A DNA stretch of 64,000 nt from Bacteroidales bacterium (GTDB lineage: Bacteria > Bacteroidota > Bacteroidia > Bacteroidales > UBA10428). The notes beneath the pieces are model-generated. The model was not told the DNA's origin and searched no databases. It was given only the letters and a program-made list of their open reading frames with translations. The DNA lies in the NCBI GenBank assembly GCA_016934395.1, contig JAFGSZ010000057.1, forward strand, positions 19,421 to 83,420, in the 5' to 3' direction. Made by a program: the position numbers and the translations under genes. Below, piece after piece: positions 33,653-48,604 of the stretch (positions are counted from its first letter, which is position 1; each line of letters opens with the position of its first letter).

Positions 33653-33670
33653 TTGTGAATAAAATAACAA
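33653..33670. promoter_or_regulatory. Second, weaker Rex-like site
   Basis: TTGTGAA-TAAA-ATAACAA lies between the Cys-rich gene and hoxF. One half-site is of the TTGTGAA type and the other is one mismatch from TTAACAA. Confidence 0.35.
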
Positions 33671-34252: not shown

Positions 34253-34702
34253 TTAATTTGAATTAATACGTCTAATAATTTTATCAGCTGTTTGTTTTAC
34301 CAATGGAGTCAAATTTTCACCAAAAACAACCGATTCAGGCTGAATTCCCAGAATAAAAACCTTGCCGATAAAAAGTTCCGAGATTTTTTTAAGAGAGATA
34401 TTATGTGTATGGGTTGTAATATTTTGAAGATTTTCTACCGGAATTAATTCACAATAACCGGGATCCCGGTTAAAATTAACAGCATCAACCAAAATAAGTA
34501 CTTCCGGTTTAAAATCATTAATTTTTTTAATATAATTTTCAATACTGATTTCAACACAAAGGTTCCTGATATTTTTTCGTTCTTTGATTTTTTGAGAGAT
34601 ATAAACACCAACTCCGTCGTCGGTTTTCAAAACATTGCCAATACCTACAAATAAAATAGTATTTGTTCCGGTTTCCAGAATATTGATGAGATTCTCAAGC
34701 AC
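34253..34702 (-). CDS. [NiFe]-hydrogenase maturation endopeptidase (HycI type)
   Basis: ILFVGIGNVLKTDDGVGV motif, 149 aa. It is the last gene of the group-4 operon. Confidence 0.85.
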   Translation of the reverse strand: MLENLINILETGTNTILFVGIGNVLKTDDGVGVYISQKIKERKNIRNLCVEISIENYIKKINDFKPEVLILVDAVNFNRDPGYCELIPVENLQNITTHTHNISLKKISELFIGKVFILGIQPESVVFGENLTPLVKQTADKIIRRINSN

Positions 34703-35314
34703 CTAATCAAAAATTTTTACCAGCACTTTCCTCAAACAATTGGGGCATATAATATTGAACATATCTTTTCTTTTTAATCCATCAACAACCTCAACCTGTA
34801 CATCTTTTTGTTGTGCCAGTTTTAATTTTTCATTTAGTATATTTAAATTCAGGATGGATGAATAGGCAATCGATCCGAGTTTTTTATGAAGATACACCAT
34901 ATGCTCTTTTGTGGTGATTACAGCCCCGCAACTTTGACAAATTAATAATTCTTTTTCCTGTGTCTCAATAAGCTCTTTGCGGTTAAATGTTGCCAGGTCG
35001 TAAATGGTATCACTCAGTTTTATCCCTTTTCCGGTGATACAATGTTCCTGGCACTGGCCGCAAAAAATGCAAAGACCATAATTTCGTTCAATTTTCCGGA
35101 TTTTTTTTTCTTTATTGTCCGTAAATTTTATCACCCCCGAAGGGCAGACATTTGTACAGGTTTCACAACCGACACAATGTTCGTTGTCTACAACCGGTTT
35201 ACCCCTGTAGTTTTCACTTGGTGTATGGGGCTTTTTTGGAAATTTGGTGGTATAAGCCGGTGAAAATAATGATACAACTGCCTCACCTACTTCTCTTATT
35301 TTAGGATATCTCAT
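34703..35314 (-). CDS. NuoI/MbhN-like 2x[4Fe-4S] subunit with a C-terminal CxxC...CxxC extension
   Basis: CVGCETCTNVCP and CIFCGQCQEHC, plus an extra CQSCGAV...CPNC segment. Confidence 0.85.
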   Translation of the reverse strand: MRYPKIREVGEAVVSLFSPAYTTKFPKKPHTPSENYRGKPVVDNEHCVGCETCTNVCPSGVIKFTDNKEKKIRKIERNYGLCIFCGQCQEHCITGKGIKLSDTIYDLATFNRKELIETQEKELLICQSCGAVITTKEHMVYLHKKLGSIAYSSILNLNILNEKLKLAQQKDVQVEVVDGLKRKDMFNIICPNCLRKVLVKIFD

Positions 35315-35658
35315 TTTTCCTCCTCTTTATTCTTTTCATTCGCATTTTTATAATGATCAACCACACTTCTGTCTCCCAGTTTTATTCCAAAAATATATGC
35401 TCCCCGCACCAGTGCATGAGCGGCAACAGTGGCTGCAAAAAATAACATAATTATAGCCAGGATGGATTTGATACCGATTTCTTTAAAACCGAAAAAAAAC
35501 AACAAGCTTAGCAGGATGCTGCATGTGCCCAGGGTAACACATTTTGTGGCGGACTGTAATCGGTTATACACATCAGGTAAACGAATTAATCCAATGCAAC
35601 CGAAAAGATTAAACAAAATTCCAATACTTAGTAATATTACAGCAATTATATTATTCAT
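35311..35658 (-). CDS. MrpG/MnhG-like antiporter subunit
   Basis: 115 aa, 3 TM helices, with the LIRLPDVYNRLQSATK motif typical of MnhG. Confidence 0.8.
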   Translation of the reverse strand: MNNIIAVILLSIGILFNLFGCIGLIRLPDVYNRLQSATKCVTLGTCSILLSLLFFFGFKEIGIKSILAIIMLFFAATVAAHALVRGAYIFGIKLGDRSVVDHYKNANEKNKEEEK

Positions 35659-35917
35659 TTAATTTTCTGCCTCCTAAATATTTAGCTAAAGTTAATGTTC
35701 CGATAAAACTCAGGATAATCCATGCAATGCCGATATCAATAATAAACGACCTTTCGGTGATCATGGCAATAATAGCGCAGATACCTACTACAAGAATCCC
35801 GAAAATATCAATGCCCACCATACGGTCAGCAATAGTAGGTCCTTTAATAATTCTGTAAAGACAGAAAAAGCATAAAATAATTTGTATATAAAGTAAAACG
35901 TTTAATACCTGATTCAT
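35651..35917 (-). CDS. MrpF/MnhF-like antiporter subunit
   Basis: 88 aa, 3 TM helices, with the IIKGPTIADRMVGID motif. The internal ATG at 35917 was chosen to avoid overlap with the MrpE-like gene. Confidence 0.75.
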   Translation of the reverse strand: MNQVLNVLLYIQIILCFFCLYRIIKGPTIADRMVGIDIFGILVVGICAIIAMITERSFIIDIGIAWIILSFIGTLTLAKYLGGRKLNE

Positions 35918-35936
35918 ACCAATTAATATAAATTTA

Positions 35937-36422
35937 TTATTCAAAAATCTTTTTAATGTACTTTTCAAATCTTCCCGATACCTGACGACTATATGTTTCC
36001 GGATCGATACTATGCACATAAATCCAATGCACATATAAATCATCATCTATCAAATCCACTGTAATGGTTCCAGGTGTCATGGTTATAGAATTTGCCAGGA
36101 TTGTTTTTGCAATACTTGTTTTTAAACCGGTTTTTACTTTTACGATCCCCGGTTTAATGGGCATTGCAGGATGTAATACCCTGTAAGCCACATCAAAATT
36201 TGCCCTGATGCATTCCCATAAAAATATAAAGAGATATACTACAAACCAGAATATCCGCCTTGGGTGTAATACTTTCCATGGTGAACTGACAAAATATTTC
36301 CCAAAGAAAAGTACTGTAATTAAAGCCATAACTGCACCTACAATAATATTGGCAACAGATATGTTATAGGTTAGCAGTAACCAAAGCCCTACAAGAAATA
36401 CAAAAGAAATTATGTTTTTCAT
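35937..36422 (-). CDS. MrpE/MnhE-like antiporter subunit
   Basis: 161 aa with N-terminal TM helices and the SITMTPGTITVD motif typical of MnhE. Confidence 0.75.
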   Translation of the reverse strand: MKNIISFVFLVGLWLLLTYNISVANIIVGAVMALITVLFFGKYFVSSPWKVLHPRRIFWFVVYLFIFLWECIRANFDVAYRVLHPAMPIKPGIVKVKTGLKTSIAKTILANSITMTPGTITVDLIDDDLYVHWIYVHSIDPETYSRQVSGRFEKYIKKIFE

Positions 36423-36423
36423 A

Positions 36424-37956
36424 TCAATTGCCCAATATTACTGTTGAATAATTTGTGGTATCCAATAAAACATTCACTGCCGGTCCCAGGAAAGAATCCC
36501 TGATGTCTGGCAATATAAGCAGGCTCAATCCAAGGCACAATACAGCCATAAATATCATTACAGCCGTCATGGAAAGAGGAACCTCTTTAATAACTTTCTT
36601 TGGCGCCGAAGTATTAAAAAATGCATACCGCTGAAATTTCATAAACGATGCAAGGGTAATAATACTTACCACAACAGCCAATACTGCCAGTAAATAAAAT
36701 CGTGCCTGAACAGCAGCAAGTATAATAATAAGCTTACTAAAGAAGCCATTAAAAGGAGGGATTCCTGAAATGGCCAGTGAGGCGCTTAATGAAGTTACCG
36801 ATGTAACCGGCATTTTTGAATACAAACCTCCCATTTTTTTAAGGTCCCGTGTTCCCAGGGTATATTCAATTGCCCCGGCATTTAAAAATAACAATCCTTT
36901 AAAAACTGCATGATTCACAAGATGGAACAAACCGCCACCAATGGCTAAAGCTGCCAGGGTTTTATTCCCATTCTTTGCAAGTATAAGCATACCCATGCCT
37001 ACACCAAGAATTACATAGCCCATCTGGCTGATGCTGTGGTAAGCCAAAAGCCGTTTCAGGTCCCACTGGCCAATAGCAAGAAACACCCCAACCACCATCG
37101 ACAGTGTTCCAATGGCCGTGATTAATACTCCTATATCAAAAGAGATAACATACATGTTAAAGAATAACCGGAACAGCACATATAATCCGGCAGCTTTAAT
37201 TACCACACCCGACAGCATAGCCGATATGGGTGAAGGAGCTGATGAATGGGCATCGGGTAGCCATCCGTGAAATGGCATAATAGCAGCTTTAAGTCCAAAA
37301 CCGGCAATAAGCATAAGCTGTGAAAATTCTATAAGCCGGTGGTCCTCACTGGTCTGAAGTATTTCGGAAATATCAGCTATATTCAGTGTTTTTGTGTACC
37401 AGTATATCAGGCCAATGCTGAACAGAATCATGGCTGTGGCTATTCCTCCCAATACCTGATATTTAAAAGATGCTTCCAGTTCTTCTTTTTCAGTGCCAAA
37501 AGCAACCAGGGCATAAGATGCGATTACGGTTATTTCCAGAAAAACATATAAATTAAAAAGATCTCCGGTAAGTACAATCCCGTTTAATCCGGCTACCATA
37601 ATACATAATAATGTATAGAAATTGTTTATGCCGGTATACTTTTCGATATAAGAAACCGAATACAATGCTGAAAGAAACGCCATAACATTAATGATACAAA
37701 GCATAAAAATGCTGAATGAATCAAGAACCAGATATATGGCAATAGGTATATTTTCAACAGGTTCCCATCCCCCGATTTTATAAATTATCGGACTAAAGTC
37801 TGATAAAAAGATATAATTCAGGCTTAGCAATAGCAAACATAAAAATGCTGTAAGTGTAATTATTTTACTGAAGCCTTTGATTAACCTTCCGATAACCGGA
37901 ACAAGAAAAGCAGAAGCTAAAGGAATTACTATAAATAAAGGTATCAGGTTATGCAT
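36424..37956 (-). CDS. MrpD/NuoM/N-like antiporter-type subunit
   Basis: 510 aa, about 14 TM helices, with proton-antiporter-M motifs (GFGLKAAIMPFHGWLPDAH, LLAYHSISQMGY). Confidence 0.85.
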   Translation of the reverse strand: MHNLIPLFIVIPLASAFLVPVIGRLIKGFSKIITLTAFLCLLLLSLNYIFLSDFSPIIYKIGGWEPVENIPIAIYLVLDSFSIFMLCIINVMAFLSALYSVSYIEKYTGINNFYTLLCIMVAGLNGIVLTGDLFNLYVFLEITVIASYALVAFGTEKEELEASFKYQVLGGIATAMILFSIGLIYWYTKTLNIADISEILQTSEDHRLIEFSQLMLIAGFGLKAAIMPFHGWLPDAHSSAPSPISAMLSGVVIKAAGLYVLFRLFFNMYVISFDIGVLITAIGTLSMVVGVFLAIGQWDLKRLLAYHSISQMGYVILGVGMGMLILAKNGNKTLAALAIGGGLFHLVNHAVFKGLLFLNAGAIEYTLGTRDLKKMGGLYSKMPVTSVTSLSASLAISGIPPFNGFFSKLIIILAAVQARFYLLAVLAVVVSIITLASFMKFQRYAFFNTSAPKKVIKEVPLSMTAVMIFMAVLCLGLSLLILPDIRDSFLGPAVNVLLDTTNYSTVILGN

Positions 37957-37959
37957 ATC

Positions 37960-38298
37960 TTATCCTTTTAAACTGGTTACCTTACGAATATCAAATGTGC
38001 CGAACTTCTTGTATATTCGAATCGCCATAGTAAGCAACATGCCTTTGGTGGCCAAACCAATAACAATAGCAGTAAGTACCATTGCCTGGGGTAAAGGATC
38101 TACAAAATTCGTTTGTGCCGGATTTCCGGTGAGAATTGGTGCACTGGCATTTTCAATATATCCGATGAGTACCAGGAACAGATACACGCTAAACTCCATG
38201 AAGGATAATCCAATCACAATCTTAATAATGTTACGGCTCGTAAGAATTCCGAAAAGGCCTACCTGGAATAGTATAAAACATAAAATGTATACAATCAT
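37960..38298 (-). CDS. MrpC/NuoK-like subunit
   Basis: 112 aa, 3 TM helices, with a conserved PLPQAMVLTAIVIG segment. Confidence 0.8.
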   Translation of the reverse strand: MIVYILCFILFQVGLFGILTSRNIIKIVIGLSFMEFSVYLFLVLIGYIENASAPILTGNPAQTNFVDPLPQAMVLTAIVIGLATKGMLLTMAIRIYKKFGTFDIRKVTSLKG

Positions 38299-38732
38299 GT
38301 TGATATCTCTTCTTTATAAATAACCAAAGCGAGAAAAATAGTAAATAATGCAGCCGCAACCTCAACGCCAACCGCAATATTGTACAAAGGAATTACCCCT
38401 GCACTGATGAGTTCGCCTATGTTGCCCTTAGGCAAATAGTTACTGAAAAATATTGTTGTTCCAATAAAAAATGCAAGTACTGCCAGTAGTAAAAAAAACA
38501 GTATCGCCACACTTTCCACAACTGATGAACCCTCTTCCCGGCTTTTCAGGTTCATTACATTGCTGCCAAAGGCAAGCACGAGTAATATAAAAGCGCCCGA
38601 TATAACAGCCCCTCCGGCAAAACCGCCACCGGGAGTAAGGTGCCCATGGACAATAATATAAATGCCATACATAAAAATAATACCAACCATAAGCTGGGCA
38701 ACTTTTTTTACTATGGGTGACATTCCGTGCAT
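38295..38732 (-). CDS. MrpB/MnhB-like subunit (C-terminal part, MbhF-like)
   Basis: HGHLTPGGGFAGG motif, 4 TM helices. Confidence 0.75.
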   Translation of the reverse strand: MHGMSPIVKKVAQLMVGIIFMYGIYIIVHGHLTPGGGFAGGAVISGAFILLVLAFGSNVMNLKSREEGSSVVESVAILFFLLLAVLAFFIGTTIFFSNYLPKGNIGELISAGVIPLYNIAVGVEVAAALFTIFLALVIYKEEIST

Positions 38733-38751
38733 ATCTTAATATTAAATTGTT

Positions 38752-39309: not shown

Positions 39310-39322
39310 GTATGCAACCTTT

Positions 39323-41200: not shown

Positions 41201-41201
41201 C

Positions 41202-42386
41202 TTACAGTTTCAATAGTTTATCTGTTTGTTTTTGTGATATTCGTATCAATTCCTCTCCTCCCAGTATCTTGTGCCCTGATCCAAAATCATAGACACTGGC
41301 CAGTCGTTCGGTGCAGCAATAACATGGGTCAACTGCTGCCAGGGAAATGGTAGCATCGGATATCGTTTGACCGATACACGATTTTTTAAATGTGGCGATA
41401 TTCACATAGCTGGGGGCGCGAATTTTATGACGCACCGGGTAATTTGAACCATTCGTTTTGGCAAAATGAAACACTTCACCACGCGGAGCTTCGGCATGCC
41501 CTGTCCCTATTCCTTCCGGAATGTTTTTCACAACAATCTCAGTTTGTCCTTCGGGTTCTTTCTTTAAACCGTCCAGGCATTGTTCGATAATTGAAACGGA
41601 TTCATACATTTCAAGCAGCCGAACCTTGGCTTTTGCAAATACATCACCCTCTTCGGCCGTAATTACCTTCCAGTTTATAAGCGGATAAGCAGCATAGGGA
41701 TCGTCTTTTCTGACATCAATAGCTATCCCGGAGGCTCTTGCTGTAGGACCCACAGCAGCAAAATCTATAATATCTTCTTTTGTAAGTATACCCACGCCTT
41801 TTGTACGGGCATGGATTACCGGATCATCCATTACGGCTCCAGTTAACAGATCGGTTTTTTTCTTTACCAGATCCAGTATTTTTTTTATCTCAGGAATTTT
41901 ATCATTTTCTATATCCCGACGTACACCACCAATTTTAAACATGGCATAGCTGTTCCGGTTACCTGAAATTTTTTCAAATAAATCCAATACGGGTTCCCTG
42001 TACTTCCAGGCCCACATAAATACCGTATTGTACCCGAGAAAATGACCGGCTAGTCCCACCCACAATAAATGACTGTGTATCCGCTCCAACTCTGCAATTA
42101 TAGTACGTATATATTTCGCCCGGTTTGGGACTTCAATTTCCCCGATTTCCTCGATACAATTTGCAAATGCAAAAGGATGAGAAGTGGAACAAATCCCGCA
42201 TACTCTTTCAACGAGAAAAAATACCTGGTCAAAAGTCTTACTCTCGCTTAGCTTTTCTATTCCCCTGTGATTGTATCCCGTTTCCCATTTAACATCTTTT
42301 ACAATCTCTCCTTCGCAATACAATTTAAACAATTCAGGTTCTTCCTGAAGCGGATGGTAAGGCCCTATGGGAATAATTTTACTCAT
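41202..42386 (-). CDS. Group-4 membrane-bound [NiFe] hydrogenase large subunit (NuoD/MbhL/HycE-like)
   Basis: N-terminal RVCGICSTSH and C-terminal DPCYCCTER, followed by a ~33-aa extension. Both Ni-binding Cys pairs are present. Confidence 0.9.
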   Translation of the reverse strand: MSKIIPIGPYHPLQEEPELFKLYCEGEIVKDVKWETGYNHRGIEKLSESKTFDQVFFLVERVCGICSTSHPFAFANCIEEIGEIEVPNRAKYIRTIIAELERIHSHLLWVGLAGHFLGYNTVFMWAWKYREPVLDLFEKISGNRNSYAMFKIGGVRRDIENDKIPEIKKILDLVKKKTDLLTGAVMDDPVIHARTKGVGILTKEDIIDFAAVGPTARASGIAIDVRKDDPYAAYPLINWKVITAEEGDVFAKAKVRLLEMYESVSIIEQCLDGLKKEPEGQTEIVVKNIPEGIGTGHAEAPRGEVFHFAKTNGSNYPVRHKIRAPSYVNIATFKKSCIGQTISDATISLAAVDPCYCCTERLASVYDFGSGHKILGGEELIRISQKQTDKLLKL

Positions 42387-42395
42387 TTAAATCTT

Positions 42396-42830
42396 TTATT
42401 TTTCAATTCGATATGGGTAAACGCCTTCAGCCCAGTTTCCTTCTGAAATTAATTTCTCCAGATTGGGATGATTTAAAAAATCAATTCCCAGTATTTCATG
42501 CATCTCCCGTTCAATCCAGTTAGCAGCCTCAAAAAGCCCTGTTAAGGATTCAATTGCAGTTTTTTTTGCTGGCAGAATTACATGCAGGTTTACTATCTCC
42601 CCATTTTTATCATTGCTGAAATGGTAATAAATCTCAAAACCCAGATTTGACTGAAGCGCTGAAGCAATAATAAACCGGTAATGAAGATTACTAAAAAGAA
42701 AGTCTGAAATTTTCACAACAGCATCGGGCGAAATATGCACAAAAATTCTCCTGTTATTCTTTTTTTCAATCAGAATAACCTTATCCTTAAAATGCTTTTT
42801 TAATTCGTCTATCTGGAAATCTTTTTCCAT
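42396..42830 (-). CDS. NuoC/MbhK-like subunit
   Basis: 144 aa with the ANWIEREMHEILGI motif typical of NuoC/HycE-N. Confidence 0.85.
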   Translation of the reverse strand: MEKDFQIDELKKHFKDKVILIEKKNNRRIFVHISPDAVVKISDFLFSNLHYRFIIASALQSNLGFEIYYHFSNDKNGEIVNLHVILPAKKTAIESLTGLFEAANWIEREMHEILGIDFLNHPNLEKLISEGNWAEGVYPYRIEK

Positions 42831-42840
42831 ATAATAATCC

Positions 42841-43275
42841 TTATGCAGATTTATGTTGTTCCGGTTTTTTATTCAGCAACTTTACAATTCCGGCAAGTAT
42901 GGCTTCAGGCTTTGGCGGACATCCCGGGATATAGGCATCTACCGGGATAATTTTATCTACCGGGCCTGCAAATGTGTTGCCTTCGGCAAAAATTCCTCCT
43001 GTACACCCACATGCGCCAATGGCCACTACCAATATGGGCTTCGGCGCCTGATGGTAAATCTCCAGCAGTCTTTTCTTATCTTTCTGGTTTATCGATCCGT
43101 TTACAAGCAATACATCGGCATGGCGTATACTGCCCACCAGTAGCATACCAAAACGTTCCACATCGTATCGCGGGGTAAGGCAGTCCAGGATTTCAATATC
43201 ACAATTATTGCATGATGCCCCACCGAAGTGAAACAGCCAGAGTGATTTTTTAAAACAAAATTCTTTAAAACCCAA
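42841..43275 (-). CDS. Group-4 [NiFe] hydrogenase small subunit (NuoB/MbhJ-like)
   Basis: FGGASCNNCDIE, GACGCTGG and GCPP motifs. The TTG at 43275, 11 nt after the NuoH-like stop, is preferred over the ATG at 43341, which would overlap the upstream gene by 55 nt. Confidence 0.85.
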   Translation of the reverse strand: MGFKEFCFKKSLWLFHFGGASCNNCDIEILDCLTPRYDVERFGMLLVGSIRHADVLLVNGSINQKDKKRLLEIYHQAPKPILVVAIGACGCTGGIFAEGNTFAGPVDKIIPVDAYIPGCPPKPEAILAGIVKLLNKKPEQHKSA

Positions 43276-43286
43276 TGTAATAAAGT

Positions 43287-44216
43287 TTATAATCCAAATA
43301 AAATTAATACAATAGCAATAATTACCAGAAGATTCATCCATACAAAGAAAAATCTCATGGCCTGATCAATCCGTACCCTGGGATTGGTATTTCTTATCAG
43401 CGTCAGCAACAATACTATTCCCAACAGCTTTAGCACTGACCACAAAATATTCAAGCCGTTAAACTGCAAACCGCCCAGAAACAAGGAACAAAGAAATACC
43501 GGCAAAATAAACAGCATACTATATTTTGCGAGCTTAATAAAGGCATAAGGGGTACCTGAATATTCGATAAAAAAACCATGGGTGATTTCGGTTTCTGCTT
43601 CGGCCATATCAAAAGGGACAAGACCCAGTTTTGCCTGAACTGTAAATACCGCAACTATAAATAGTAATACCCCTGAGATGCTCCCAATAAATGGTGAATC
43701 TTCCTGCACCAATAAAATTTCGTTCAATTTAATACTCATGTTTGCTTTCAGGATTATTGCTGCAATTATGAGTAAAAAGGTAAGCTCATAACTAACGATA
43801 AGCTTCATTTCTCTTGATGCCCCTACAGCCGCCAGTGGATTACCAGAGGCCAGGGCCCCTATGATATAGGTTAACGAGGGTATCGTGAGCAAATAAAAAA
43901 TTACGATAATATCACCGCTAAAACCCGATTTAATATTTAAAACCGGAAGAAGAATCAGTAAACCGGCCAATAATGCTCCGGTAAGTGAAAAAACCGGGGC
44001 TAACAAAAAAGTGATTTTTGATCCCTTTGCCGGTAAAATGGTTTCTTTTACAAGGAGTAGTTTAAAAAAATCGTAAAAAGGCTGCAAAAAAGGTGGTCCT
44101 TTTCTGAATTGAAGCCAGGCAGTAATTTTTCTGTCGAACCAGGCCAAAATACCTCCTGAAACTGCTACAAACAGAAAACCTGGATAGATTATATAATAGA
44201 ATAAATCCTTTAACAT
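43287..44216 (-). CDS. NuoH/MbhM/HycD-like membrane subunit
   Basis: 309 aa, about 8 TM helices, with RKITAWLQFRKGP and PFDMAEAETE motifs. Confidence 0.85.
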   Translation of the reverse strand: MLKDLFYYIIYPGFLFVAVSGGILAWFDRKITAWLQFRKGPPFLQPFYDFFKLLLVKETILPAKGSKITFLLAPVFSLTGALLAGLLILLPVLNIKSGFSGDIIVIFYLLTIPSLTYIIGALASGNPLAAVGASREMKLIVSYELTFLLIIAAIILKANMSIKLNEILLVQEDSPFIGSISGVLLFIVAVFTVQAKLGLVPFDMAEAETEITHGFFIEYSGTPYAFIKLAKYSMLFILPVFLCSLFLGGLQFNGLNILWSVLKLLGIVLLLTLIRNTNPRVRIDQAMRFFFVWMNLLVIIAIVLILFGL

Positions 44217-44217
44217 A

Positions 44218-44688
44218 TCAGGACCATATTGATTCTTTAATAAGTATTTTTTCGTTTAATGCATAGATATTTTCGTCAGGATTTGCATCCTTTTCAATAA
44301 TACAAATCACATCATCGGGAAATAATTCTGCAAACTGGGTTAAACTATTTTCATCGGTTATATTGAAAAATTTGTACCCCGAGGTTTTTACTTCAAATAA
44401 ATCATTCATCAGGGTGCCAAAGGGACAGATCACGATACAGGATTTGCAGCGTATGCAAAGATTTACAGCACGTGACACAATGCCGTTTTCTTCCTTCTCA
44501 AGAGCCTTGGCCGGACAGGCATTGATGCATGGCGCATTTTCACACCGTCTGCAGGTATATAAAAATGTTGCCAGTTCACGAACGGTTTTAAATGACTTGG
44601 CAGGATTACCAGTCAGAAGCACGGCATCGGCTTTTGAATCGGGAAAATCCCGTAATTTAAGTAAATCGATTAACAACTTTTTACTCAT
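44218..44688 (-). CDS. 2x[4Fe-4S] ferredoxin-like subunit
   Basis: CRRCENAPCINACP and CIRCKSCIVICP motifs. The ATG at 44688 (MSKKLL), 10 nt after the upstream stop, is preferred. Confidence 0.75.
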   Translation of the reverse strand: MSKKLLIDLLKLRDFPDSKADAVLLTGNPAKSFKTVRELATFLYTCRRCENAPCINACPAKALEKEENGIVSRAVNLCIRCKSCIVICPFGTLMNDLFEVKTSGYKFFNITDENSLTQFAELFPDDVICIIEKDANPDENIYALNEKILIKESIWS

Positions 44689-44698
44689 TCCTTTGCAT

Positions 44699-45523
44699 TT
44701 AAATCCAGATATCCGGCTGATCTTTAATTTCATCGTATGTAAATACCGGCCCGTCTTTACACACGTAATATTTTCCCATCATACAGTGCCCGCATTTTCC
44801 CAGGCCGCAGGACATATTTTTTTCCATCGACAGATAAATTTTTTCTTCGGGATATCCCAGTTCCAGTAATTTCAGGGTTCCGAATTTCATCATTACGGGA
44901 GGTCCGCAAACCACAGCAACAGATTCAGCAATATTTACATTAATATCATCAAGCAATACCGTAACCACACCTTCTTTCTCTTCCCAGGTTTCATCGGCAT
45001 GATCAACACTGCGTAACACTTCAAACTTTTCAATTTTTTTAAGTTCATCCACAAATGGCTTATAAATACATTCATCGGGGGTTTTGGCACCATAACACAG
45101 TGTAACTTTTTTAAATTTTTCCTTTTCAGCAATTAAGTTATACATTAAAGAACGAATAGGTGCAAAACCACAACCGCCTCCAAGAATAACCACTTCCTTC
45201 CCATAAAATTTATCCAGGGGGTACCCCCTTCCGTATGGACCCCTGATCCCAACCACATCGCCACGTTTTAAAGCATGAATTTTTTCTGTTACATATCCGG
45301 CTTTCATTACGGTAACTTCAATCTTTTTTGTTTCCAGGGGCGAAGACGAGGGAGTGAATGGCGCTTCACCATAACCATTTATGGTAAGTTCGATAAACTC
45401 ACCCGTTTTGAAAAAGAATTCCTTTTCCGGAATCAGCACAAAAGATTTTATCATGGGCGATTCTTTAATCACCCGGTCAACGGTAGCTTTTATGGGTTTA
45501 TATATATTATGGTTTCCCTGCAT
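44699..45523 (-). CDS. FAD/NAD(P)-binding 2Fe-2S oxidoreductase (sulfhydrogenase gamma / AsrB / PyrK family)
   Basis: RGPYGRGY, ILGGGCGFAPIRS, and a C-terminal MSCGLGKCGHCMMG. Confidence 0.85.
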   Translation of the reverse strand: MQGNHNIYKPIKATVDRVIKESPMIKSFVLIPEKEFFFKTGEFIELTINGYGEAPFTPSSSPLETKKIEVTVMKAGYVTEKIHALKRGDVVGIRGPYGRGYPLDKFYGKEVVILGGGCGFAPIRSLMYNLIAEKEKFKKVTLCYGAKTPDECIYKPFVDELKKIEKFEVLRSVDHADETWEEKEGVVTVLLDDINVNIAESVAVVCGPPVMMKFGTLKLLELGYPEEKIYLSMEKNMSCGLGKCGHCMMGKYYVCKDGPVFTYDEIKDQPDIWI

Positions 45524-45535
45524 ATATATTATTTA

Positions 45536-46537
45536 TTACAAAGAGGCCATCTGTATAAAAATTTCATTTTTATTTATATTACCAATGCACGTGTCAATGC
45601 ATCGCCCGCAACCGGTACAGGCAATGGATTTATATTTTTCCGGCCGCCATACATATTTACACATGTATCGGTTTCTGAACCTCATATACTTCTTTTTTAG
45701 CGGATCTTCACCGGCAGCAATTCTTTCAAATCCCAGGTACTGACAAGCGTCTGTCTGTCTCACTTTTTCAAAATCCGGCCGGTCTACCAAAAGAAAACAG
45801 GTACAGGTTGGACAAATAACAGCGCATGCCCCGCACGATACGCAGTTCTTTGAATATTCCTCCCATTTATCATTTTCCGATTTTTTAATAAGGGCTCCTG
45901 TATGTTGATAATCCGGTAGCCGGGTATTTTTTTTCTCCAGCATTTTTTTAACCGAATTTCTTTTCTCCTGAAGTTTCTTTAGGATATCTAGTCCGGCTTC
46001 AGTGAGCTGAAAATTTAAAATCATTTCATTGACCAACTTCTCCCCTTTTTCAGAATTGGAAAAAATTATAAAATCGTCGTTTATTGCTGATAAGGAAAGA
46101 TCAAAATTAACTTCAGGCCAGGGATTGATATTATAGGAAACACAATGACAATGTTCCTGTATCTCGTAACAATCACTTCCAATTAGAATGGTGTTTTCCC
46201 TGTTAAAGTTATATACTGTATCCGTATGATCAGGATCAAGATAAATTTCATCAAGAAGTTCAAGCGCCTTTAAATCGCATGCCGGAACTCCGAGAATTAT
46301 ATTTTTATTGTGAATCTCTCTCTCAATAACTACATTCTCCTTAATAGGCAATAAAAAAGCTTTGAGAGGGGTAACAGGCTTAGCTGCAAAATAGGACAGG
46401 TTATTTAATTCAGGACTATATTCCTCATATTCAATAATATTATTATTATTGACCGGAACAAACATGTTATGAGAATTGGTAAGGAGAGTGAGATATTTTA
46501 ACCAGGAATGTTTGTGTATTTGGAATCCTTTTTTCAT
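45536..46537 (-). CDS. 4Fe-4S protein (sulfhydrogenase beta / AsrA family)
   Basis: CVSCGACAVICPTCTCF and CTGCGRCIDTC motifs. The ATG at 46537 (MKKGFQ) is preferred over 46582. Confidence 0.8.
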   Translation of the reverse strand: MKKGFQIHKHSWLKYLTLLTNSHNMFVPVNNNNIIEYEEYSPELNNLSYFAAKPVTPLKAFLLPIKENVVIEREIHNKNIILGVPACDLKALELLDEIYLDPDHTDTVYNFNRENTILIGSDCYEIQEHCHCVSYNINPWPEVNFDLSLSAINDDFIIFSNSEKGEKLVNEMILNFQLTEAGLDILKKLQEKRNSVKKMLEKKNTRLPDYQHTGALIKKSENDKWEEYSKNCVSCGACAVICPTCTCFLLVDRPDFEKVRQTDACQYLGFERIAAGEDPLKKKYMRFRNRYMCKYVWRPEKYKSIACTGCGRCIDTCIGNINKNEIFIQMASL

Positions 46538-46541
46538 TTTT

Positions 46542-46559
46542 TTGTTCCAAATTTCACAA
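46542..46559. promoter_or_regulatory. Degenerate Rex-like site at the head of the group-4 operon
   Basis: TTGTTCC-AAAT-TTCACAA has one perfect TTCACAA half-site and one 5/7 half-site. It lies 5-22 nt upstream of the ATG at 46537. Confidence 0.35.
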
Positions 46560-46695
46560 TAATTGGAGTAAATATAATTCAAATGATTATATTTGTCAAT
46601 AAATTCTCCCGATTTTTTCCCGAAAGCTAAAATTACTTATTCACATTTAATTAACGTTTTCTATTAATCTATTATAAAATAAGAGTTTGGAAGTT

Positions 46696-48599: not shown

Positions 48600-48604
48600 A
48601 TCCC

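What the first reader, a model, noticed from the sequence alone, without database searches (positions are those of the whole stretch)
34253..46559. 17-gene operon fusing an NAD(P)H-type (sulfhydrogenase beta/gamma) module to a group-4 [NiFe] hydrogenase and a complete MrpA-G antiporter set
Seen in sequence: seventeen minus-strand genes are packed with junctions of -8 to +19 nt. In order they are:
- an AsrA/sulfhydrogenase-beta-like 4Fe-4S protein (CPTCTCF);
- an AsrB/PyrK/sulfhydrogenase-gamma-like FAD-NAD(P) protein (GGGCGFAPIRS, CGLGKCGHC);
- a 2x[4Fe-4S] ferredoxin;
- NuoH-, NuoB- and NuoC-like subunits;
- a [NiFe] large subunit with both Cys pairs (RVCGICSTSH, DPCYCCTER);
- MrpA-, MrpA-C/B-, MrpB-, MrpC-, MrpD-, MrpE-, MrpF- and MrpG-like genes in canonical Mrp order, with two antiporter-type subunits of 625 and 510 aa;
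- a NuoI-like subunit;
- a HycI-type protease.

Established knowledge: characterised Mrp-linked group-4 hydrogenases (Pyrococcus Mbh, the Thermococcus formate- or CO-linked enzymes) use ferredoxin, formate or CO. The beta/gamma pair is the NAD(P)H-binding module of soluble group-3b sulfhydrogenases and of anaerobic sulfite reductase.

Inference: this complex may couple NAD(P)H/NAD(P)+ to H+/H2 with ion translocation. H2 oxidation by NAD(P)+ is exergonic (E0' about -414 vs -320 mV) and could pump ions. In the reverse direction, ion-motive force could pull H2 evolution from NAD(P)H. I know of no biochemically characterised enzyme with this composition.
Basis: partly seen in the sequence, partly recalled or inferred. 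Interest (0 to 1): 0.8.

Follow-up and report, generated by a model that had tools for sequence, protein, structure and literature searches.

The report
NAD(P)H-linked ion-pumping membrane hydrogenase operon
This Bacteroidales operon encodes a membrane-bound nickel-iron hydrogenase with a sodium/proton-pumping arm and an NAD(P)H-type electron-input module, a conserved enzyme family found in several phyla that has been listed in genome papers but never tested biochemically and that probably links cellular NADH to hydrogen gas and the membrane ion gradient.

Summary
Seventeen tightly packed minus-strand genes (34253-46537) encode:
- sulfhydrogenase-type beta and gamma subunits;
- a 2x[4Fe-4S] HycB-like connector;
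- NuoH/B/C, a group-4 [NiFe] large subunit, a HycF-like NuoI and a HycI protease;
- a full Mrp-type membrane arm with two antiporter-like subunits.

All cofactor cysteines and the gamma NAD(P)-binding motifs are invariant in 53-81 orthologues. All 17 genes are colinear in 43 of the 80 best-matching species genomes, all Bacteroidota. The same architecture occurs in Kosmotoga and Elusimicrobia. In a neighbour-joining tree, all beta/gamma-linked large subunits form one clade.

K. olearia RNA-seq places beta/gamma/connector in one transcription unit with the hydrogenase core. A Rex (NADH-sensor) gene and/or Rex operator sits at the operon start in Bacteroidota, Kosmotoga and Elusimicrobia.

Best reading: a Rex-controlled, reversible, ion-translocating NAD(P)H:H+ oxidoreductase, most likely evolving H2 from NADH.

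I found no biochemical characterisation. The cluster has been catalogued before (Kole_0560-0574; "Mbh-Mrp" types), and related bacterial enzymes are classed in HydDB 4g as "ferredoxin-coupled (putative)". I rate it a new variant of a known kind. Direction, cofactor and ion coupling remain inferred.

The parts
46571..46599 (-). Best sigma-70-like promoter match of the region (TTGACA-17-TATATT, 11/12), directly upstream of the Rex box
   Evidence: This is a consensus match only. Bacteroidota often use a different promoter consensus (my own knowledge), and the total promoter-like count in the region is not above the shuffles.
46542..46559 (.). Rex-operator-like palindrome (TTGTGAAATTTGGAACAA on the operon strand; 2 mismatches to TTGTKAANNNNTTMACAA), 4 nt upstream of the beta ATG
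   Evidence: Such boxes occur in the rex-beta intergenic region of 49 of 57 orthologous loci. A 1-mismatch box sits 15 nt upstream of beta in the Kosmotoga-type locus L086.
46687..47298 (+). Divergently transcribed rex (redox-sensing repressor Rex, NADH/NAD+ sensor)
   Evidence: NCBIfam NF003996 scores 210 bits against a cut-off of 138. Pfam gives Put_DNA-bind_N + CoA_binding. An orthologue lies next to beta in 50 of 57 loci and in the Elusimicrobia locus L094.
45536..46537 (-). Beta subunit: sulfhydrogenase-beta/AsrA-like protein, 333 aa, 16 invariant Cys
   Evidence: Pfam Fer4_22 2e-22. NCBIfam ShyB 134 bits, AsrA 118, HydB 116, all below the equivalog cut-offs. The only PDB hit is 9NEZ_B, 5e-32. 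The start is supported by P0121.
44699..45523 (-). Gamma subunit: FAD / NAD(P)H / [2Fe-2S] protein, 274 aa
   Evidence: Pfam NAD_binding_1 3.6e-16, DHODB_Fe-S_bind, FAD_binding_6. PDB 9NEZ_C 3e-51. GGGCGxAPiRS, CGPPxMMKF and four [2Fe-2S] Cys are conserved.
44218..44688 (-). HycB/HydN-like 2x[4Fe-4S] connector ferredoxin subunit (about 156 aa; longest ORF reaches 44733)
   Evidence: Pfam Fer4_11/Fer4_16. Best PDB hits are HycB4/HycB3 of HDCR 7QV7 and HycB of FHL 7Z0S_B. Eight Cys are invariant.
43287..44216 (-). NuoH/MbhM-like membrane anchor
   Evidence: Pfam NADHdh 3e-65.
42841..43341 (-). NuoB-like hydrogenase small subunit (start codon uncertain)
   Evidence: Pfam Oxidored_q6 4e-32. C44, C47, C111 and C141 are invariant.
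42396..42830 (-). NuoC/MbhK-like subunit
   Evidence: Pfam Complex1_30kDa 4e-20.
41202..42386 (-). Group-4 [NiFe] hydrogenase large subunit, 394 aa, with both CxxC pairs and a 33-aa C-terminal extension
   Evidence: It is 100% identical to P0001, an NCBI 'MAG: nickel-dependent hydrogenase large subunit [Bacteroidales bacterium]'.
39323..41200 (-). Antiporter-like subunit 1 (625 aa; MrpA N-part / MbsH'-like, including the C-terminal part)
   Evidence: Pfam Proton_antipo_M. It aligns end to end with MbsH' 6U8Y_X, residues 17-618 against 7-611.
38752..39309 (-). MbhD+MbhE fusion (MrpA C-terminal part)
   Evidence: Pfam MbhD 1.7e-16 and MbhE 4.8e-10.
38295..38732 (-). MrpB/MbhF-like subunit
   Evidence: Pfam MnhB 7.5e-24.
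37960..38298 (-). MrpC/NuoK/MbhG-like subunit
   Evidence: Pfam Oxidored_q2 2e-25.
36424..37956 (-). Antiporter-like subunit 2 (510 aa; MrpD/MbhH orthologue)
   Evidence: Pfam Proton_antipo_M 1e-64. PDB 6CFW_H, 288 bits, full length.
35937..36422 (-). MrpE/MbhA-like subunit
   Evidence: Pfam MNHE 7e-45.
35651..36046 (-). MrpF/MbhB-like subunit (longest ORF; probable start ATG 35917)
   Evidence: Pfam MrpF_PhaF 8e-13 on residues 73-124. Orthologues are 84-112 aa.
35311..35658 (-). MrpG/MbhC-like subunit
   Evidence: Pfam PhaG_MnhG_YufB 5e-22.
34703..35314 (-). NuoI/HycF-like 2x[4Fe-4S] subunit with four extra invariant Cys
   Evidence: NCBIfam 'formate hydrogenlyase complex iron-sulfur subunit' 101 bits. 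The best PDB hit is HycF 7Z0S_F, ahead of NdhI and MbhN.
34253..34702 (-). HycI-type large-subunit maturation endopeptidase
   Evidence: Pfam HycI. NCBIfam TIGR00072 scores 83.5 bits against a cut-off of 47.45.

Best explanation
The operon encodes one membrane complex: a Rex-regulated, reversible, ion-translocating NAD(P)H:H+ oxidoreductase, that is, an NAD(P)H-linked, Mrp-type group-4 [NiFe] hydrogenase.

**Proposed electron path (inferred by homology to solved complexes).** NAD(P)H -> FAD and [2Fe-2S] in gamma -> three [4Fe-4S] in beta -> two [4Fe-4S] in the HycB-like connector -> two [4Fe-4S] in the HycF-like NuoI subunit -> the single [4Fe-4S] of the NuoB-like small subunit -> the [NiFe] site, where 2 H+ become H2.

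**Ion coupling (inferred).** The catalytic module sits on NuoH. It is coupled to a membrane arm with two antiporter-like subunits plus the MrpB/C/E/F/G-type Na+/H+ module, so redox turnover is linked to H+/Na+ movement.

**Physiological direction I consider most likely.** H2 evolution from NADH when the NADH/NAD+ ratio is high and Rex repression is lifted. At very low H2 the reaction could export ions. At higher H2 it would be driven by ion influx (reverse electron flow). This would let a fermenter reoxidise glycolytic NADH and make more acetate and ATP.

**What is shown and what is inferred.** Shown: gene content, cofactor motifs, conservation, clade structure, the Rex association, and co-transcription in an orthologue. 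Inferred: physical assembly, NADH versus NADPH, direction, the ion translocated and the stoichiometry.
For: 1. **Module identity.** Pfam, NCBIfam and PDB matches for all 17 products.
2. **Purifying selection on every cofactor site.** Invariant across 53-81 orthologues are 16 Cys in beta; the [2Fe-2S] Cys plus GGGCGxAPiRS and CGPPxMMKF in gamma; 8 Cys in the connector; 12 in the NuoI-like subunit; and the four Ni-Fe Cys.
3. **Conserved tight operon.** All 17 genes are present in 43 of 80 Bacteroidota species loci. In all 80 loci beta/gamma/connector are present wherever the contig reaches.
4. **Same architecture in other phyla.** Kosmotoga (P0242, identical to entries named 'Kosmotoga sp.' and clustered at 90% with K. 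olearia ACR79287), Elusimicrobia MAG GCA_020523885.1 and metagenome contig L093.
5. **One clade.** All five relatives whose context could be read within the window's large-subunit clade carry beta/gamma/connector. Relatives at 45-48% identity outside the clade (P0245, P0246, P0247, P0254) show none in the DNA available, though two of those contigs are short or end near the gene. In a neighbour-joining tree of 127 large-subunit representatives, the beta/gamma-linked ones form a single 9-leaf clade.
6. **Own beta/gamma lineage.** Where a soluble group-3b operon with its own beta/gamma lies next door (L093), the window's beta and gamma are closer to the group-4-linked copies (36% and 50%) than to the 3b copies (28% and 34%).
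7. **Internal contrast.** Gamma keeps intact NAD(P)-binding motifs in all Mrp-linked versions. The motifs are degenerate in the two Mrp-less relatives.
8. **NADH-sensing control.**
   - A bona fide Rex is encoded divergently.
   - Rex-like boxes occur in 49 of 57 orthologous rex-beta intergenic regions. About one would be expected in those 18 kb at the window-wide shuffle rate.
   - Boxes are present in 48 of 50 loci with rex and in 1 of 7 without it.
   - The Kosmotoga-type locus has a 1-mismatch box 15 nt upstream of beta, the only hit in 20.8 kb.
   - Rex lies immediately upstream in the Elusimicrobia locus.
9. **Co-transcription in K. olearia.** RNA-seq transcription units join beta, gamma and connector with NuoH/B/C/large subunit (Kole_0568-0575). 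All cluster genes co-vary at low level on pyruvate, a substrate that yields reduced ferredoxin but no glycolytic NADH (PMC5674127 supplement; the last point is my inference).
10. **FHL-like wiring.** The NuoI-like and connector subunits are most similar to HycF and HycB. In formate hydrogenlyase these link an external substrate-oxidising module to the hydrogenase core (structure described in PMC9474812, listed; its role is from my own knowledge).
Against: - No biochemical, proteomic or structural evidence exists for assembly or for NAD(P)H use.
- NAD(P)H -> H2 is endergonic under standard conditions (E0' about -320 vs -414 mV; established knowledge). Ion export in the H2-evolving direction is therefore feasible only at very low H2. 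Otherwise the complex must consume the gradient.
- The same window already encodes two other NADH-linked hydrogenases: a Hox group-3d-like operon and the start of a HydABC-type [FeFe] enzyme. A third needs a distinct role.
- Beta and gamma score far below the NCBIfam equivalog cut-offs for ShyB/HydB/AsrA and ShyC/HydG/AsrB, so their function is transferred only at superfamily level.
- Published genome studies place bacterial Mrp-linked Mbh enzymes from other phyla in HydDB 4g, 'ferredoxin-coupled (putative)'.
- The two Mrp-less relatives have gamma subunits with degenerate NAD(P) motifs, so the module need not always bind a nucleotide.
- NADH versus NADPH could not be decided from sequence.
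- The tree is neighbour-joining without support values.
- The Rex box in this window has 2 mismatches.
Confidence: 0.6

Rival explanations
1. Same complex, opposite physiological direction. It acts as an H2-uptake enzyme (H2:NAD(P)+ oxidoreductase) that pumps Na+/H+ while making NAD(P)H, for example to feed Nqr/fumarate respiration or biosynthesis.
For:
- The complex has a full pumping arm with two antiporter-like subunits.
- Group-4 enzymes such as Ech and FHL are reversible (PMC9474812 abstract; HydDB table).
Against: - Rex is a repressor released by high NADH (established knowledge). The conserved Rex association therefore fits an NADH-consuming enzyme better than an NADH-producing one.
- At the very low H2 typical of anoxic sediments the reaction is close to equilibrium or endergonic (inference).
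- The window's hydrogen-related neighbours are fermentative types: Hox, HydABC-like and an alanine dehydrogenase.
Confidence: 0.2
2. An ordinary ferredoxin-dependent Mrp-Mbh, the default function HydDB gives for groups 4d and 4g. Beta, gamma and the connector would form a separate soluble oxidoreductase, or an accessory, that merely shares the operon.
For: - HydDB lists 4d as ferredoxin-coupled and 4g as 'ferredoxin-coupled (putative)'.
- Metagenome papers assume ferredoxin for bacterial Mrp-Mbh.
- MbhL is the best solved relative of the large subunit.
Against: - Beta/gamma/connector are always first in the operon, with junctions of a few nucleotides.
- They are co-transcribed with the core in K. 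olearia.
- They track the large-subunit clade across phyla, including versions without Mrp.
- No other catalytic partner for beta/gamma, such as AsrC or a group-3 large subunit, is in the operon.
- The NuoI-like subunit is HycF-like, the type that docks a HycB-like connector, rather than MbhN-like.
Confidence: 0.1
3. A three-partner enzyme. Reduced ferredoxin and NAD(P)H both feed the [NiFe] site (confurcation-like). Alternatively the complex works mainly as an ion-translocating ferredoxin:NAD(P)+ oxidoreductase, with H2 as a relief valve.
For: - The complex has many Fe-S clusters and a ferredoxin-like connector that could offer a second docking site.
- Gamma is related to NfnA/PyrK-type subunits of bifurcating enzymes (4YLF, E 1e-18).
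- Mbx was once proposed to be a ferredoxin:NADP+ oxidoreductase (quoted).
Against: - No subunit carrying a second, bifurcating flavin (GltD/NfnB-like or NuoF/HydB-like) is encoded in the operon.
- Sulfhydrogenase-type beta/gamma are not known to bifurcate (my own knowledge).
Confidence: 0.07
4. The beta/gamma module reduces a sulfur compound (polysulfide, S0 or sulfite) rather than exchanging electrons with NAD(P)H, making the complex a membrane 'sulfhydrogenase' or an Mbs/Asr-like sulfur reductase.
For: - Beta and gamma are homologous to AsrA/AsrB and to sulfhydrogenase beta/gamma.
- JGI annotates orthologues as 'sulfhydrogenase subunit beta (sulfur reductase)'.
- The membrane arm resembles MBS.
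Against: - The large subunit keeps all four Ni-Fe Cys, a cleavable extension and a dedicated HycI, so it is a true hydrogenase, unlike MbsL.
- No AsrC/siroheme subunit is present in the operon.
- The gamma NAD(P)-binding motifs are invariant.
- The regulator is an NADH sensor.
Confidence: 0.03

Closest known systems
Pyrococcus furiosus membrane-bound hydrogenase MBH (MbhA-N; PDB 6CFW; HydDB group 4d)
   Same: - Group-4 [NiFe] catalytic module on a NuoH-like anchor, with a NuoB-like small subunit and separate NuoC-like and NuoD-like subunits.
- Mrp-derived Na+/H+ module (MbhA-G equivalents).
- MbhH orthologue (288 bits) and MbhL as the best solved relative of the large subunit (281 bits).
   Different: - MBH takes electrons from free ferredoxin at MbhN and has no beta, gamma or HycB-like subunits.
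- MBH has one antiporter-like subunit plus MbhI. Here a second, 625-aa antiporter-like subunit is present.
- The gene order differs.
- The NuoI-like subunit here is closer to HycF than to MbhN.
Pyrococcus furiosus soluble (sulf)hydrogenase I, group 3b (alpha-beta-gamma-delta; PDB 9NEZ)
   Same: Beta (three [4Fe-4S]-type Cys sets) and gamma (FAD, [2Fe-2S], NAD(P)H site) are the closest solved relatives of the first two gene products. The presumed role as the NAD(P)H-side electron module is the same.
   Different: - SHI is cytosolic. Its beta/gamma deliver electrons to a group-3 small subunit with three clusters and a group-3 large subunit.
- Here they are attached, via a HycB-like connector, to a membrane-bound group-4 core.
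- The sequences score far below the NCBIfam equivalog cut-offs (134 vs 690; 178 vs 600).
- They form a lineage distinct from co-resident 3b beta/gamma.
Escherichia coli formate hydrogenlyase FHL-1 (PDB 7Z0S; group 4a) and the Thermococcus Mrp-linked formate/CO-dependent hydrogenases (group 4b)
   Same: - The design principle is the same: a substrate-oxidising module is wired through a HycB-type poly-ferredoxin and a HycF-type subunit to a group-4 hydrogenase.
- HycF and HycB are among the best solved matches of the NuoI-like and connector subunits, and HycE scores 272 bits.
- Group 4b also carries Mrp subunits.
   Different: - The input module is a flavoprotein pair (beta/gamma) instead of a molybdopterin formate dehydrogenase or a CODH.
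- The connector has two clusters rather than four.
- NuoC and NuoD are separate rather than fused.
Pyrococcus furiosus membrane-bound sulfane reductase MBS (PDB 6U8Y) and Mrp antiporters (6Z16, 7QRU)
   Same: The membrane arm has two antiporter-like subunits. The 625-aa protein aligns end to end with MbsH', and all MrpA-G equivalents are present.
   Different: MbsL lacks the Ni-Fe Cys ligands and reduces polysulfide. Mrp has no redox module. Here the large subunit is a complete hydrogenase.
'Mbh-Mrp' and 'Mbh-Mrp-oxidoreductase' gene clusters reported from genomes: K. olearia Kole_0560-0574, Elusimicrobia, Saganbacteria RX5A
   Same: - The Kosmotoga and Elusimicrobia loci fetched here have the same 17-gene architecture.
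- Saganbacteria RX5A carries asrA-like, asrB-like and cooF-like genes next to an Mrp-type group-4 hydrogenase.
- All are uncharacterised.
   Different: - The Saganbacteria and some Elusimicrobia clusters add a molybdopterin FdhH-like subunit. None is present here.
- Those papers left the function open or assumed ferredoxin.
NAD+-coupled bidirectional Hox hydrogenase (group 3d) and respiratory complex I
   Same: Both couple NADH to a NuoB/NuoD-type module. Complex I couples NADH oxidation to ion pumping through antiporter-like subunits. A Hox-like operon lies immediately downstream in this window and also carries Rex boxes.
   Different: - Hox and complex I use a NuoE/F/G-type FMN module, not a PyrK-like FAD subunit.
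- Hox is soluble and does not pump.
- Complex I reduces quinone, not protons.

Membership tests
[quoted passage not shown] | Large subunit of NuoD type with N-terminal RxCGxCxxxH and C-terminal DPCxxC Ni-Fe ligands | tested here: met
   RVCGICSTSH (C63, C66) and DPCYCCTER (C355, C358) are invariant in 81 sequences. Pfam gives Complex1_49kDa + NiFeSe_Hases. The best PDB relatives are MbhL and HycE.
[quoted passage not shown] | NuoB-like small subunit with one [4Fe-4S], plus NuoC-, NuoH- and NuoI-like subunits | tested here: met
   Pfam Oxidored_q6, Complex1_30kDa, NADHdh and Fer4. The small-subunit Cys C44, C47, C111 and C141 are invariant.
[quoted passage not shown] | Hydrogenase activity coupled to ion translocation | not testable with these tools
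   Needs enzyme assays on membranes or proteoliposomes.
Mrp-linked ferredoxin-dependent MBH (HydDB 4d, P. furiosus type) | Mrp-derived Na+/H+ module (MbhA-G equivalents) encoded with the hydrogenase | tested here: met
   Pfam MNHE, MrpF_PhaF, PhaG_MnhG_YufB, MbhD, MbhE, MnhB and Oxidored_q2.
Mrp-linked ferredoxin-dependent MBH (HydDB 4d, P. furiosus type) | A single antiporter-like subunit (MbhH) plus MbhI, 14 subunits, and no dedicated electron-input module (free ferredoxin is the donor) | tested here: not met
   There are two antiporter-like subunits (625 and 510 aa) and three extra redox subunits (beta, gamma, connector).
HydDB group 4g ('ferredoxin-coupled (putative)', uncharacterised) | Large-subunit sequence assigned to 4g by the HydDB classifier | not testable with these tools
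   HydDB is not available here. A homologue search with a member of the beta/gamma-linked clade (P0244) returned an Omnitrophota large subunit at 49% identity (P0517). Published work assigns Mrp-linked Mbh of Omnitrophota, Cloacimonadota and Auribacterota to 4g. Membership is therefore plausible but untested.
Group 3b sulfhydrogenase (alpha-beta-gamma-delta) | Beta subunit with three [4Fe-4S]-type Cys sets, and gamma subunit with FAD, a [2Fe-2S] cluster and an NAD(P)H site | tested here: met
   All Cys of SHI beta align with Cys here. The gamma motifs are conserved. The match is at superfamily level only, since NCBIfam scores are below the equivalog cut-offs.
Group 3b sulfhydrogenase (alpha-beta-gamma-delta) | Group-3 large subunit and three-cluster delta small subunit, forming a soluble heterotetramer | tested here: not met
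   The large subunit is of NuoD/group-4 type and the small subunit is NuoB-like. Ten membrane subunits are encoded.
Formate hydrogenlyase-type complexes (groups 4a/4b) | HycB-type connector and HycF-type subunit linking an external dehydrogenase to the core | tested here: met
   The best PDB hits are HycB3/HycB4/HycB and HycF. The connector has only two clusters.
Formate hydrogenlyase-type complexes (groups 4a/4b) | Molybdopterin formate dehydrogenase (or CODH) as the electron-input subunit | tested here: not met
   No such domain is found in any of the 17 products or in the immediate neighbours.
Anaerobic sulfite reductase AsrABC | AsrA and AsrB together with the siroheme subunit AsrC | tested here: not met
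   AsrA and AsrB models match below their cut-offs (118 vs 323; 212 vs 289). No AsrC-like gene is in the operon or among the annotated flanks. ORFs at 301-6930, 24433-25341 and 60051-60452 were not scanned or gave no hit.
Rex regulon | A Rex operator (TTGTGAAnnnnTTCACAA-like palindrome) in the promoter region, and a Rex protein in the genome | tested here: met
   Rex1 and Rex2 score above the NCBIfam cut-offs. A box lies at 46542-46559 with 2 mismatches. Boxes occur in 49 of 57 orthologous upstream regions and track the presence of rex. A box is also present in the Kosmotoga-type locus. Binding itself was not tested.

The most novel reading that the evidence does not exclude
The whole clade would be a previously unrecognised bioenergetic coupling site. 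The clade comprises large subunits linked to beta/gamma/connector and is found in Bacteroidota, Kosmotoga, Elusimicrobia and others. Published genome studies treat such bacterial Mrp-Mbh enzymes as ferredoxin-coupled and class examples from other phyla in HydDB 4g. On this reading the enzyme is a reversible Na+/H+-translocating NAD(P)H:H+ oxidoreductase under Rex control. It would let common anaerobic polysaccharide degraders make H2 directly from NADH at the expense of, or at very low H2 with a gain in, ion-motive force, without ferredoxin or electron bifurcation.
Probability: 0.5. Interest if true: 0.8.

Novelty: new variant of a known kind. Interest (0 to 1): 0.62.

Why it matters
- **The open problem.** How fermenters dispose of NADH as H2 is a long-standing thermodynamic question. 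The known answers are very low H2 (syntrophy), electron-confurcating [FeFe] hydrogenases, or Rnf run in reverse together with a ferredoxin-dependent hydrogenase.
- **What this enzyme would add.** A single membrane enzyme tying NAD(P)H directly to H+/H2 and to the ion gradient would be a fourth solution. [quoted passage not shown]
- **Distribution.** The 80 best loci are all Bacteroidota and all share the architecture.
- **Consequences for annotation.** Published metagenome studies treat bacterial Mrp-linked Mbh enzymes as ferredoxin-coupled, so H2 budgets and metabolic models for anoxic sediments, digesters and guts built on that assumption may be wrong for this clade.
- **Testability.** The architecture occurs in cultured organisms: Kosmotoga, Labilibacter sediminis CG51 and, by its large subunit (context not read), Marinilabiliaceae JC017.

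Tried and rejected
1. **Literature.** Ten full-text searches looked for a characterised NAD(P)H-dependent Mrp/Mbh hydrogenase or for a description of the Bacteroidota cluster.
   - Only genome-level mentions turned up: Saganbacteria, Elusimicrobia, and the K. olearia gene list.
   - The Staphylothermus, Methylocystis and Effluviviacota papers were read and are not relevant to beta/gamma.
   - Schut et al. 2012 (FEMS Rev), Schut et al. 2016 (BBA) and Ravcheev et al. 2012 (Rex regulons) are not held. I cannot say whether they already proposed NAD(P)H coupling or a Rex site for the Kosmotoga cluster.
2. **NADH versus NADPH.** I compared the stretch after the second Rossmann strand (window YGAKTPDE) with SHI gamma, 3b gammas and relatives. 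The G-A-[KR]-T-P motif is shared with 3b enzymes and the acidic residues are not conserved, so no call is possible. A paper on the SHI structure 9NEZ could not be found.
3. **HydDB subgroup.** The classifier is not available. Scores against MbhL (4d) and HycE (4a) are nearly equal, so the large subunit is neither. A 4g assignment is only indirect.
4. **Promoters and terminators.** The overall counts in the region are no higher than in shuffles. Only the single best promoter-like hit, in front of beta, is worth noting. No internal terminator stands out.
5. **Homologue searches with the window's own proteins.** Searches with the large subunit and with beta returned only Bacteroidota-level relatives in the top 120. 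Diversity came instead from the 50%-identity representative library plus context look-ups.
6. **Source contig.** The look-up of the window's own large subunit returned only a 4.1-kb Logan contig, which gives no environmental information.
7. **Hox as part of the system.** I considered and rejected this. Hox is present downstream in only 3 of the 80 loci and has its own Rex boxes and intergenic region.

Full report
**1. The observation**

The window carries 17 consecutive minus-strand ORFs between 34253 and 46582. In operon order they are:

1. Beta, a Fer4_22 protein. It matches ShyB at 134 bits, AsrA at 118 and HydB at 116.
2. Gamma, with FAD_binding_6, NAD_binding_1 and DHODB_Fe-S_bind domains.
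3. A 2x[4Fe-4S] protein, called the connector below.
4. NuoH-like, NuoB-like and NuoC-like subunits.
5. A Complex1_49kDa/NiFeSe_Hases large subunit.
6. A 625-aa Proton_antipo_M protein.
7. An MbhD+MbhE fusion, then MnhB, MrpC/NuoK, a 510-aa Proton_antipo_M protein, MrpE, MrpF and MrpG.
8. A NuoI-like protein.
9. HycI.

With the most plausible start codons the junctions run from -8 to +19 nt.

Two coordinates need correcting:
- Beta starts at ATG 46537. That gives 333 aa, the length of the identical NCBI protein P0121.
- The connector starts at 44688, which is where conservation among orthologues begins.

**2. Organism and surroundings**

The large subunit is identical to a protein from a Bacteroidales MAG. 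The window is a hydrogen-metabolism island:
- Directly downstream on the same strand is a Hox-like group-3d operon: a NuoE-NuoF fusion, HoxU-, HoxY- and HoxH-like proteins, and a maturation protease.
- Upstream and divergent is a bona fide rex (210 bits against a cut-off of 138), followed by an alanine dehydrogenase and a second rex.
- Further out lie hypF, hypD, hypE and a hypB-like gene, hydF and radical-SAM HydE/G-like genes, a sensory-type [FeFe] hydrogenase, and the start of a HydABC-type enzyme.

**3. Is it real and conserved?**

The best 80 loci are all Bacteroidota. They include Bacteroidales, Marinilabiliaceae and Rikenellaceae MAGs and the isolate Labilibacter sediminis CG51.
- tblastn with all window proteins shows the same genes in the same order in every locus, as far as each contig reaches. 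Identities are 45-59% for beta, 65-85% for gamma and 78-87% for the large subunit.
- All 17 genes are present in 43 loci, with median junctions of -8 to +28 nt.
- In alignments of 53-81 orthologues, every presumed cofactor ligand is invariant:
  - 16 Cys in beta;
  - the four [2Fe-2S] Cys of gamma, with GEAPFTPSSSP, GGGCGxAPiRS and CGPPxMMKF conserved at 90% or more;
  - 8 Cys in the connector;
  - 8 + 4 Cys in the NuoI-like subunit;
  - the four Ni-Fe Cys of the large subunit.
- This is purifying selection on a working redox chain, not a chance juxtaposition.

**4. What the parts resemble**

- *Beta and gamma.* Among solved structures, beta matches only P. furiosus sulfhydrogenase I beta (9NEZ_B, 5e-32), with all its Cys aligned. 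Gamma matches 9NEZ_C (3e-51).
- *Large subunit.* It scores almost equally against MbhL (6CFW, 281 bits) and HycE (7Z0S, 272 bits). It carries a 33-residue extension after DPCYCCTER, as expected for a HycI substrate (the cleavage rule is established knowledge from HycE).
- *Peripheral wiring.* The NuoI-like subunit is closest to HycF, ahead of NdhI and MbhN. The connector is closest to HycB-type proteins. The wiring therefore follows the formate-hydrogenlyase plan, in which an external dehydrogenase is plugged in through HycB and HycF.
- *Membrane arm.* The 510-aa subunit is an MbhH orthologue (288 bits). The 625-aa subunit aligns end to end with MbsH'. The membrane arm is therefore the two-antiporter MBS/Mrp type rather than the one-antiporter MBH type.

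**5. Beyond Bacteroidota**

In the 50%-identity representative library the nearest large-subunit clusters are only 59-60% identical. All others are 48% or lower. Context look-ups gave the following.

| Large subunit | Identity to window | Source | Context |
|---|---|---|---|
| P0242 | 59% | Kosmotoga; its 90% cluster contains K. olearia ACR79287 | Same 17 genes, followed by hypF, hypC, hypD |
| P0510 | 63% | Elusimicrobia MAG | rex, then the same 17 genes |
| P0414 | 64% | Metagenome contig L093 | Same set except the terminal HycI; next to a complete group-3b operon with its own beta/gamma |
| P0244 | 46% | Metagenome contig L084 | beta-gamma-connector-NuoH-NuoB-NuoC-large subunit-NuoI, no Mrp gene |
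| P0408 | 42% | Unclassified MAG (L092) | Same as P0244, no Mrp gene; a group-3b operon lies next door |
| P0245, P0246, P0247, P0254 | 45-48% | Various | No beta/gamma in the DNA available; two of the contigs are short or end near the gene |

- In a neighbour-joining tree of 127 representatives, all beta/gamma-linked large subunits fall in one 9-leaf clade. The tree has no support values.
- In L093 the window's beta and gamma are closer to the group-4-linked copies (36% and 50%) than to the neighbouring 3b copies (28% and 34%).
- The beta/gamma/connector module is therefore an old, clade-defining part of this hydrogenase lineage. The Mrp arm is present in one branch of it.
- Gamma keeps its NAD(P)-binding motifs in all Mrp-linked versions. 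In the two Mrp-less ones the motifs are degenerate.

**6. Regulation**

- A search for TTGTKAANNNNTTMACAA with up to two mismatches finds 10 sites in the window, against 3.2 expected.
- A perfect site and a 1-mismatch site lie upstream of the Hox operon (33521-33538 and 33653-33670).
- A 2-mismatch site (46542-46559) lies 4 nt upstream of the beta ATG. It sits just downstream of the best sigma-70-like promoter match in the region.
- In 49 of 57 orthologous loci at least one such box lies in the rex-beta intergenic region. About one would be expected in the roughly 18 kb examined.
- Boxes track the regulator: 48 of 50 loci with a divergent rex have one, against 1 of 7 without rex.
- The Kosmotoga-type locus has a 1-mismatch box 15 nt upstream of beta, the only hit in 20.8 kb.
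- The Elusimicrobia locus has rex immediately upstream on the same strand.
- Rex is a repressor released at a high NADH/NAD+ ratio (established knowledge). Association of this operon with an NADH sensor in three phyla is independent support for a link to the NAD pool, and it favours an NADH-consuming role.

**7. Transcripts in an orthologue**

The RNA-seq supplement of Pollo et al. 2017 (PMC5674127) lists Kole_0560-0574 as a hydrogenase, citing Schut et al. 2012. Its transcription-unit table gives two units:
- Kole_0568-0575: large subunit, NuoC, NuoB, NuoH, connector, gamma, beta and a hypothetical protein.
- Kole_0555-0566: Mrp genes, NuoI, HycI and five further genes downstream (hyp genes, judging by the homologous locus L086).

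The split falls at Kole_0567, the MrpA-like gene, which is annotated as a pseudogene in that strain. All these genes co-vary at RPKM of about 30-200 on pyruvate.

Low expression on pyruvate, which yields no glycolytic NADH, is what Rex control would predict. That last point is my inference.

**8. Mechanism proposed**

- *Electron path (inferred from homology).* NAD(P)H -> FAD/[2Fe-2S] in gamma -> three [4Fe-4S] in beta -> two [4Fe-4S] in the connector -> two [4Fe-4S] in the HycF-like subunit -> [4Fe-4S] in the NuoB-like subunit -> [NiFe].
- *Thermodynamics (established knowledge plus inference).*
  - E0' is about -320 mV for NAD+/NADH and -414 mV for H+/H2.
  - H2 evolution from NADH costs about +18 kJ/mol at 1 atm H2.
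  - It becomes exergonic only at roughly 10 Pa H2 or below.
- *Consequences for coupling.*
  - At very low H2 the complex could export an ion.
  - At higher H2 it would use Na+/H+ influx to push electrons uphill, as Ech and Rnf do in reverse in other organisms.
  - The gain for a fermenter is more acetyl-CoA routed to acetate and ATP.
  - The reverse reaction, H2 uptake with ion export, is equally possible chemically. I rank it second because of the Rex logic.
- *Unresolved.* NADH versus NADPH.

**9. Comparison with what is known, and novelty**

- The enzyme is a member of the group-4 [NiFe] hydrogenases by every sequence criterion I could test.
- It is not a P. furiosus-type MBH: it has an extra antiporter-like subunit and an extra input module.
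- It is not a group-3b sulfhydrogenase: the catalytic dimer is of the wrong type and the complex is membrane-bound.
- It is not a formate hydrogenlyase: it has no molybdopterin subunit.
- It is not an Asr sulfite reductase: it has no AsrC.
- It works like an FHL/4b-type modular complex in which the input module is the sulfhydrogenase beta/gamma pair.
- HydDB labels group 4g "ferredoxin-coupled (putative)", and metagenome papers that assign bacterial Mrp-Mbh to 4g assume ferredoxin. The Omnitrophota large subunit P0517 appeared at 49% identity in a homologue search with a clade member. That makes 4g the likely bin, but I could not run the classifier.
- Prior mentions exist:
  - the K. olearia list;
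  - Saganbacteria RX5A, with asrA-, asrB-, cooF- and fdhH-like genes, called "enigmatic";
  - the Elusimicrobia "Mbh-Mrp" type, and an "Mbh-Mrp-oxidoreductase" type whose oxidoreductase was said to be of unknown function.
- I found no biochemical work.
- I could not read Schut et al. 2012. That review may already comment on the Kosmotoga cluster.

**10. Verdict**

The finding is a new variant of a known kind rather than categorically new, and it has been partly noticed before. It is nevertheless widespread, it probably differs from the ferredoxin coupling that genome papers assume, and it can be tested directly in cultured organisms.

- Interest: 0.62.
- Confidence in the NAD(P)H-linked, ion-coupled, Rex-controlled H2-evolving reading: about 0.6.

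Noticed in passing
window 28415-33481 (-), Rex boxes at 33521-33538 and 33653-33670: A Hox-like group-3d NAD-coupled [NiFe] hydrogenase operon lies directly downstream. It comprises a NuoE-NuoF fusion (602 aa), a HoxU-like protein (237 aa), a small subunit (182 aa), a large subunit (483 aa, RLCGICPVSH ... DPCLSC) and a maturation protease (167 aa). A perfect Rex palindrome (TTGTTAATTTTTTAACAA) and a 1-mismatch one sit in its upstream region. The operon is present next to the Mrp-Mbh operon in only 3 of 80 related loci.
   Followed up: partly
window 33731-34156 (-): A 141-aa ORF with 10 Cys in CxxC-type pairs (weak zinc-ribbon Pfam hits, no NCBIfam hit) lies between HycI and the Hox operon and is preceded by a GGGAGGA motif. 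It is conserved only in L010 (70%). It is unclear whether it is an 18th operon gene, a hox-associated gene, or neither.
   Followed up: partly
window 46687-49260: Two Rex paralogues (46687-47298 + and 48640-49260 -, about 31% identical by tblastn) flank an NAD-dependent alanine dehydrogenase (47484-48599 +). The rex1-alaDH pair is conserved in the closest relatives (L001, L003-L005, L010). Alanine formation is another NADH sink, which fits a local Rex-controlled redox-balancing gene set.
   Followed up: partly
window 17358-23934 and 49339-62261: The window is a hydrogenase island.
- [FeFe] maturases: HydF (18859-20091) and radical-SAM HydE/G-like genes (20116-21225; 22501-23934).
- [NiFe] maturation genes: HypF (49339-51630), HypD (51923-53026), HypE (52911-54026) and a HypB-like gene (55135-55950).
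- A sensory-type [FeFe] hydrogenase-like gene (57023-58384) lies among HATPase and PHP genes.
- A NuoF-like HydB (60468-62261) probably starts a HydABC-type enzyme.
   Followed up: partly
window 34703-35314 (-), residues C126, C129, C190, C193: The NuoI/HycF-like subunit has a C-terminal extension with two CxxC pairs that are invariant in 53 orthologues, in addition to the two [4Fe-4S] motifs. It could be an extra metal site or a zinc ribbon for docking the connector. This was not examined further.
   Followed up: no
L084 5808-12011 and L092 5846-11775: Relatives in the same large-subunit clade encode beta-gamma-connector-NuoH-NuoB-NuoC-large subunit-NuoI with no Mrp or antiporter-like gene at all (GC 56-64%, T9SS-type neighbours). 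Their gamma subunits have degenerate NAD(P)-binding and CGPP motifs. This may be a membrane-anchored, non-pumping and possibly nucleotide-independent variant.
   Followed up: partly
L093 962-5431 and L092 1-3641: In two loci a complete soluble group-3b (sulfhydrogenase-type) operon with its own beta/gamma pair lies immediately upstream of the beta/gamma-linked group-4 operon. The two beta/gamma pairs are clearly paralogous.
   Followed up: partly
K. olearia Kole_0567 (PMC5674127 supplement); compare L086 10753-12552: The MrpA-like antiporter gene of the orthologous cluster is annotated as a pseudogene in K. olearia TBF 19.5.1, whereas it is an intact 599-aa gene in the Kosmotoga-type contig L086. 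This matters when choosing a model strain.
   Followed up: no
L082 827-2578, L083 840-2591 (protein P0241): A large subunit 60% identical to the window's is fused to NuoC (583 aa) in short metagenome contigs. It falls inside the beta/gamma-linked clade in the neighbour-joining tree, but the contigs are too short to see beta/gamma or Mrp.
   Followed up: no
window 7264-11537 (+): Secreted glycoside hydrolases are encoded here: GH26 with CBM35 and a T9SS sorting domain, and a GH9-like protein. They indicate a polysaccharide-degrading Bacteroidales lifestyle, consistent with a fermentative need for NADH disposal.
   Followed up: no
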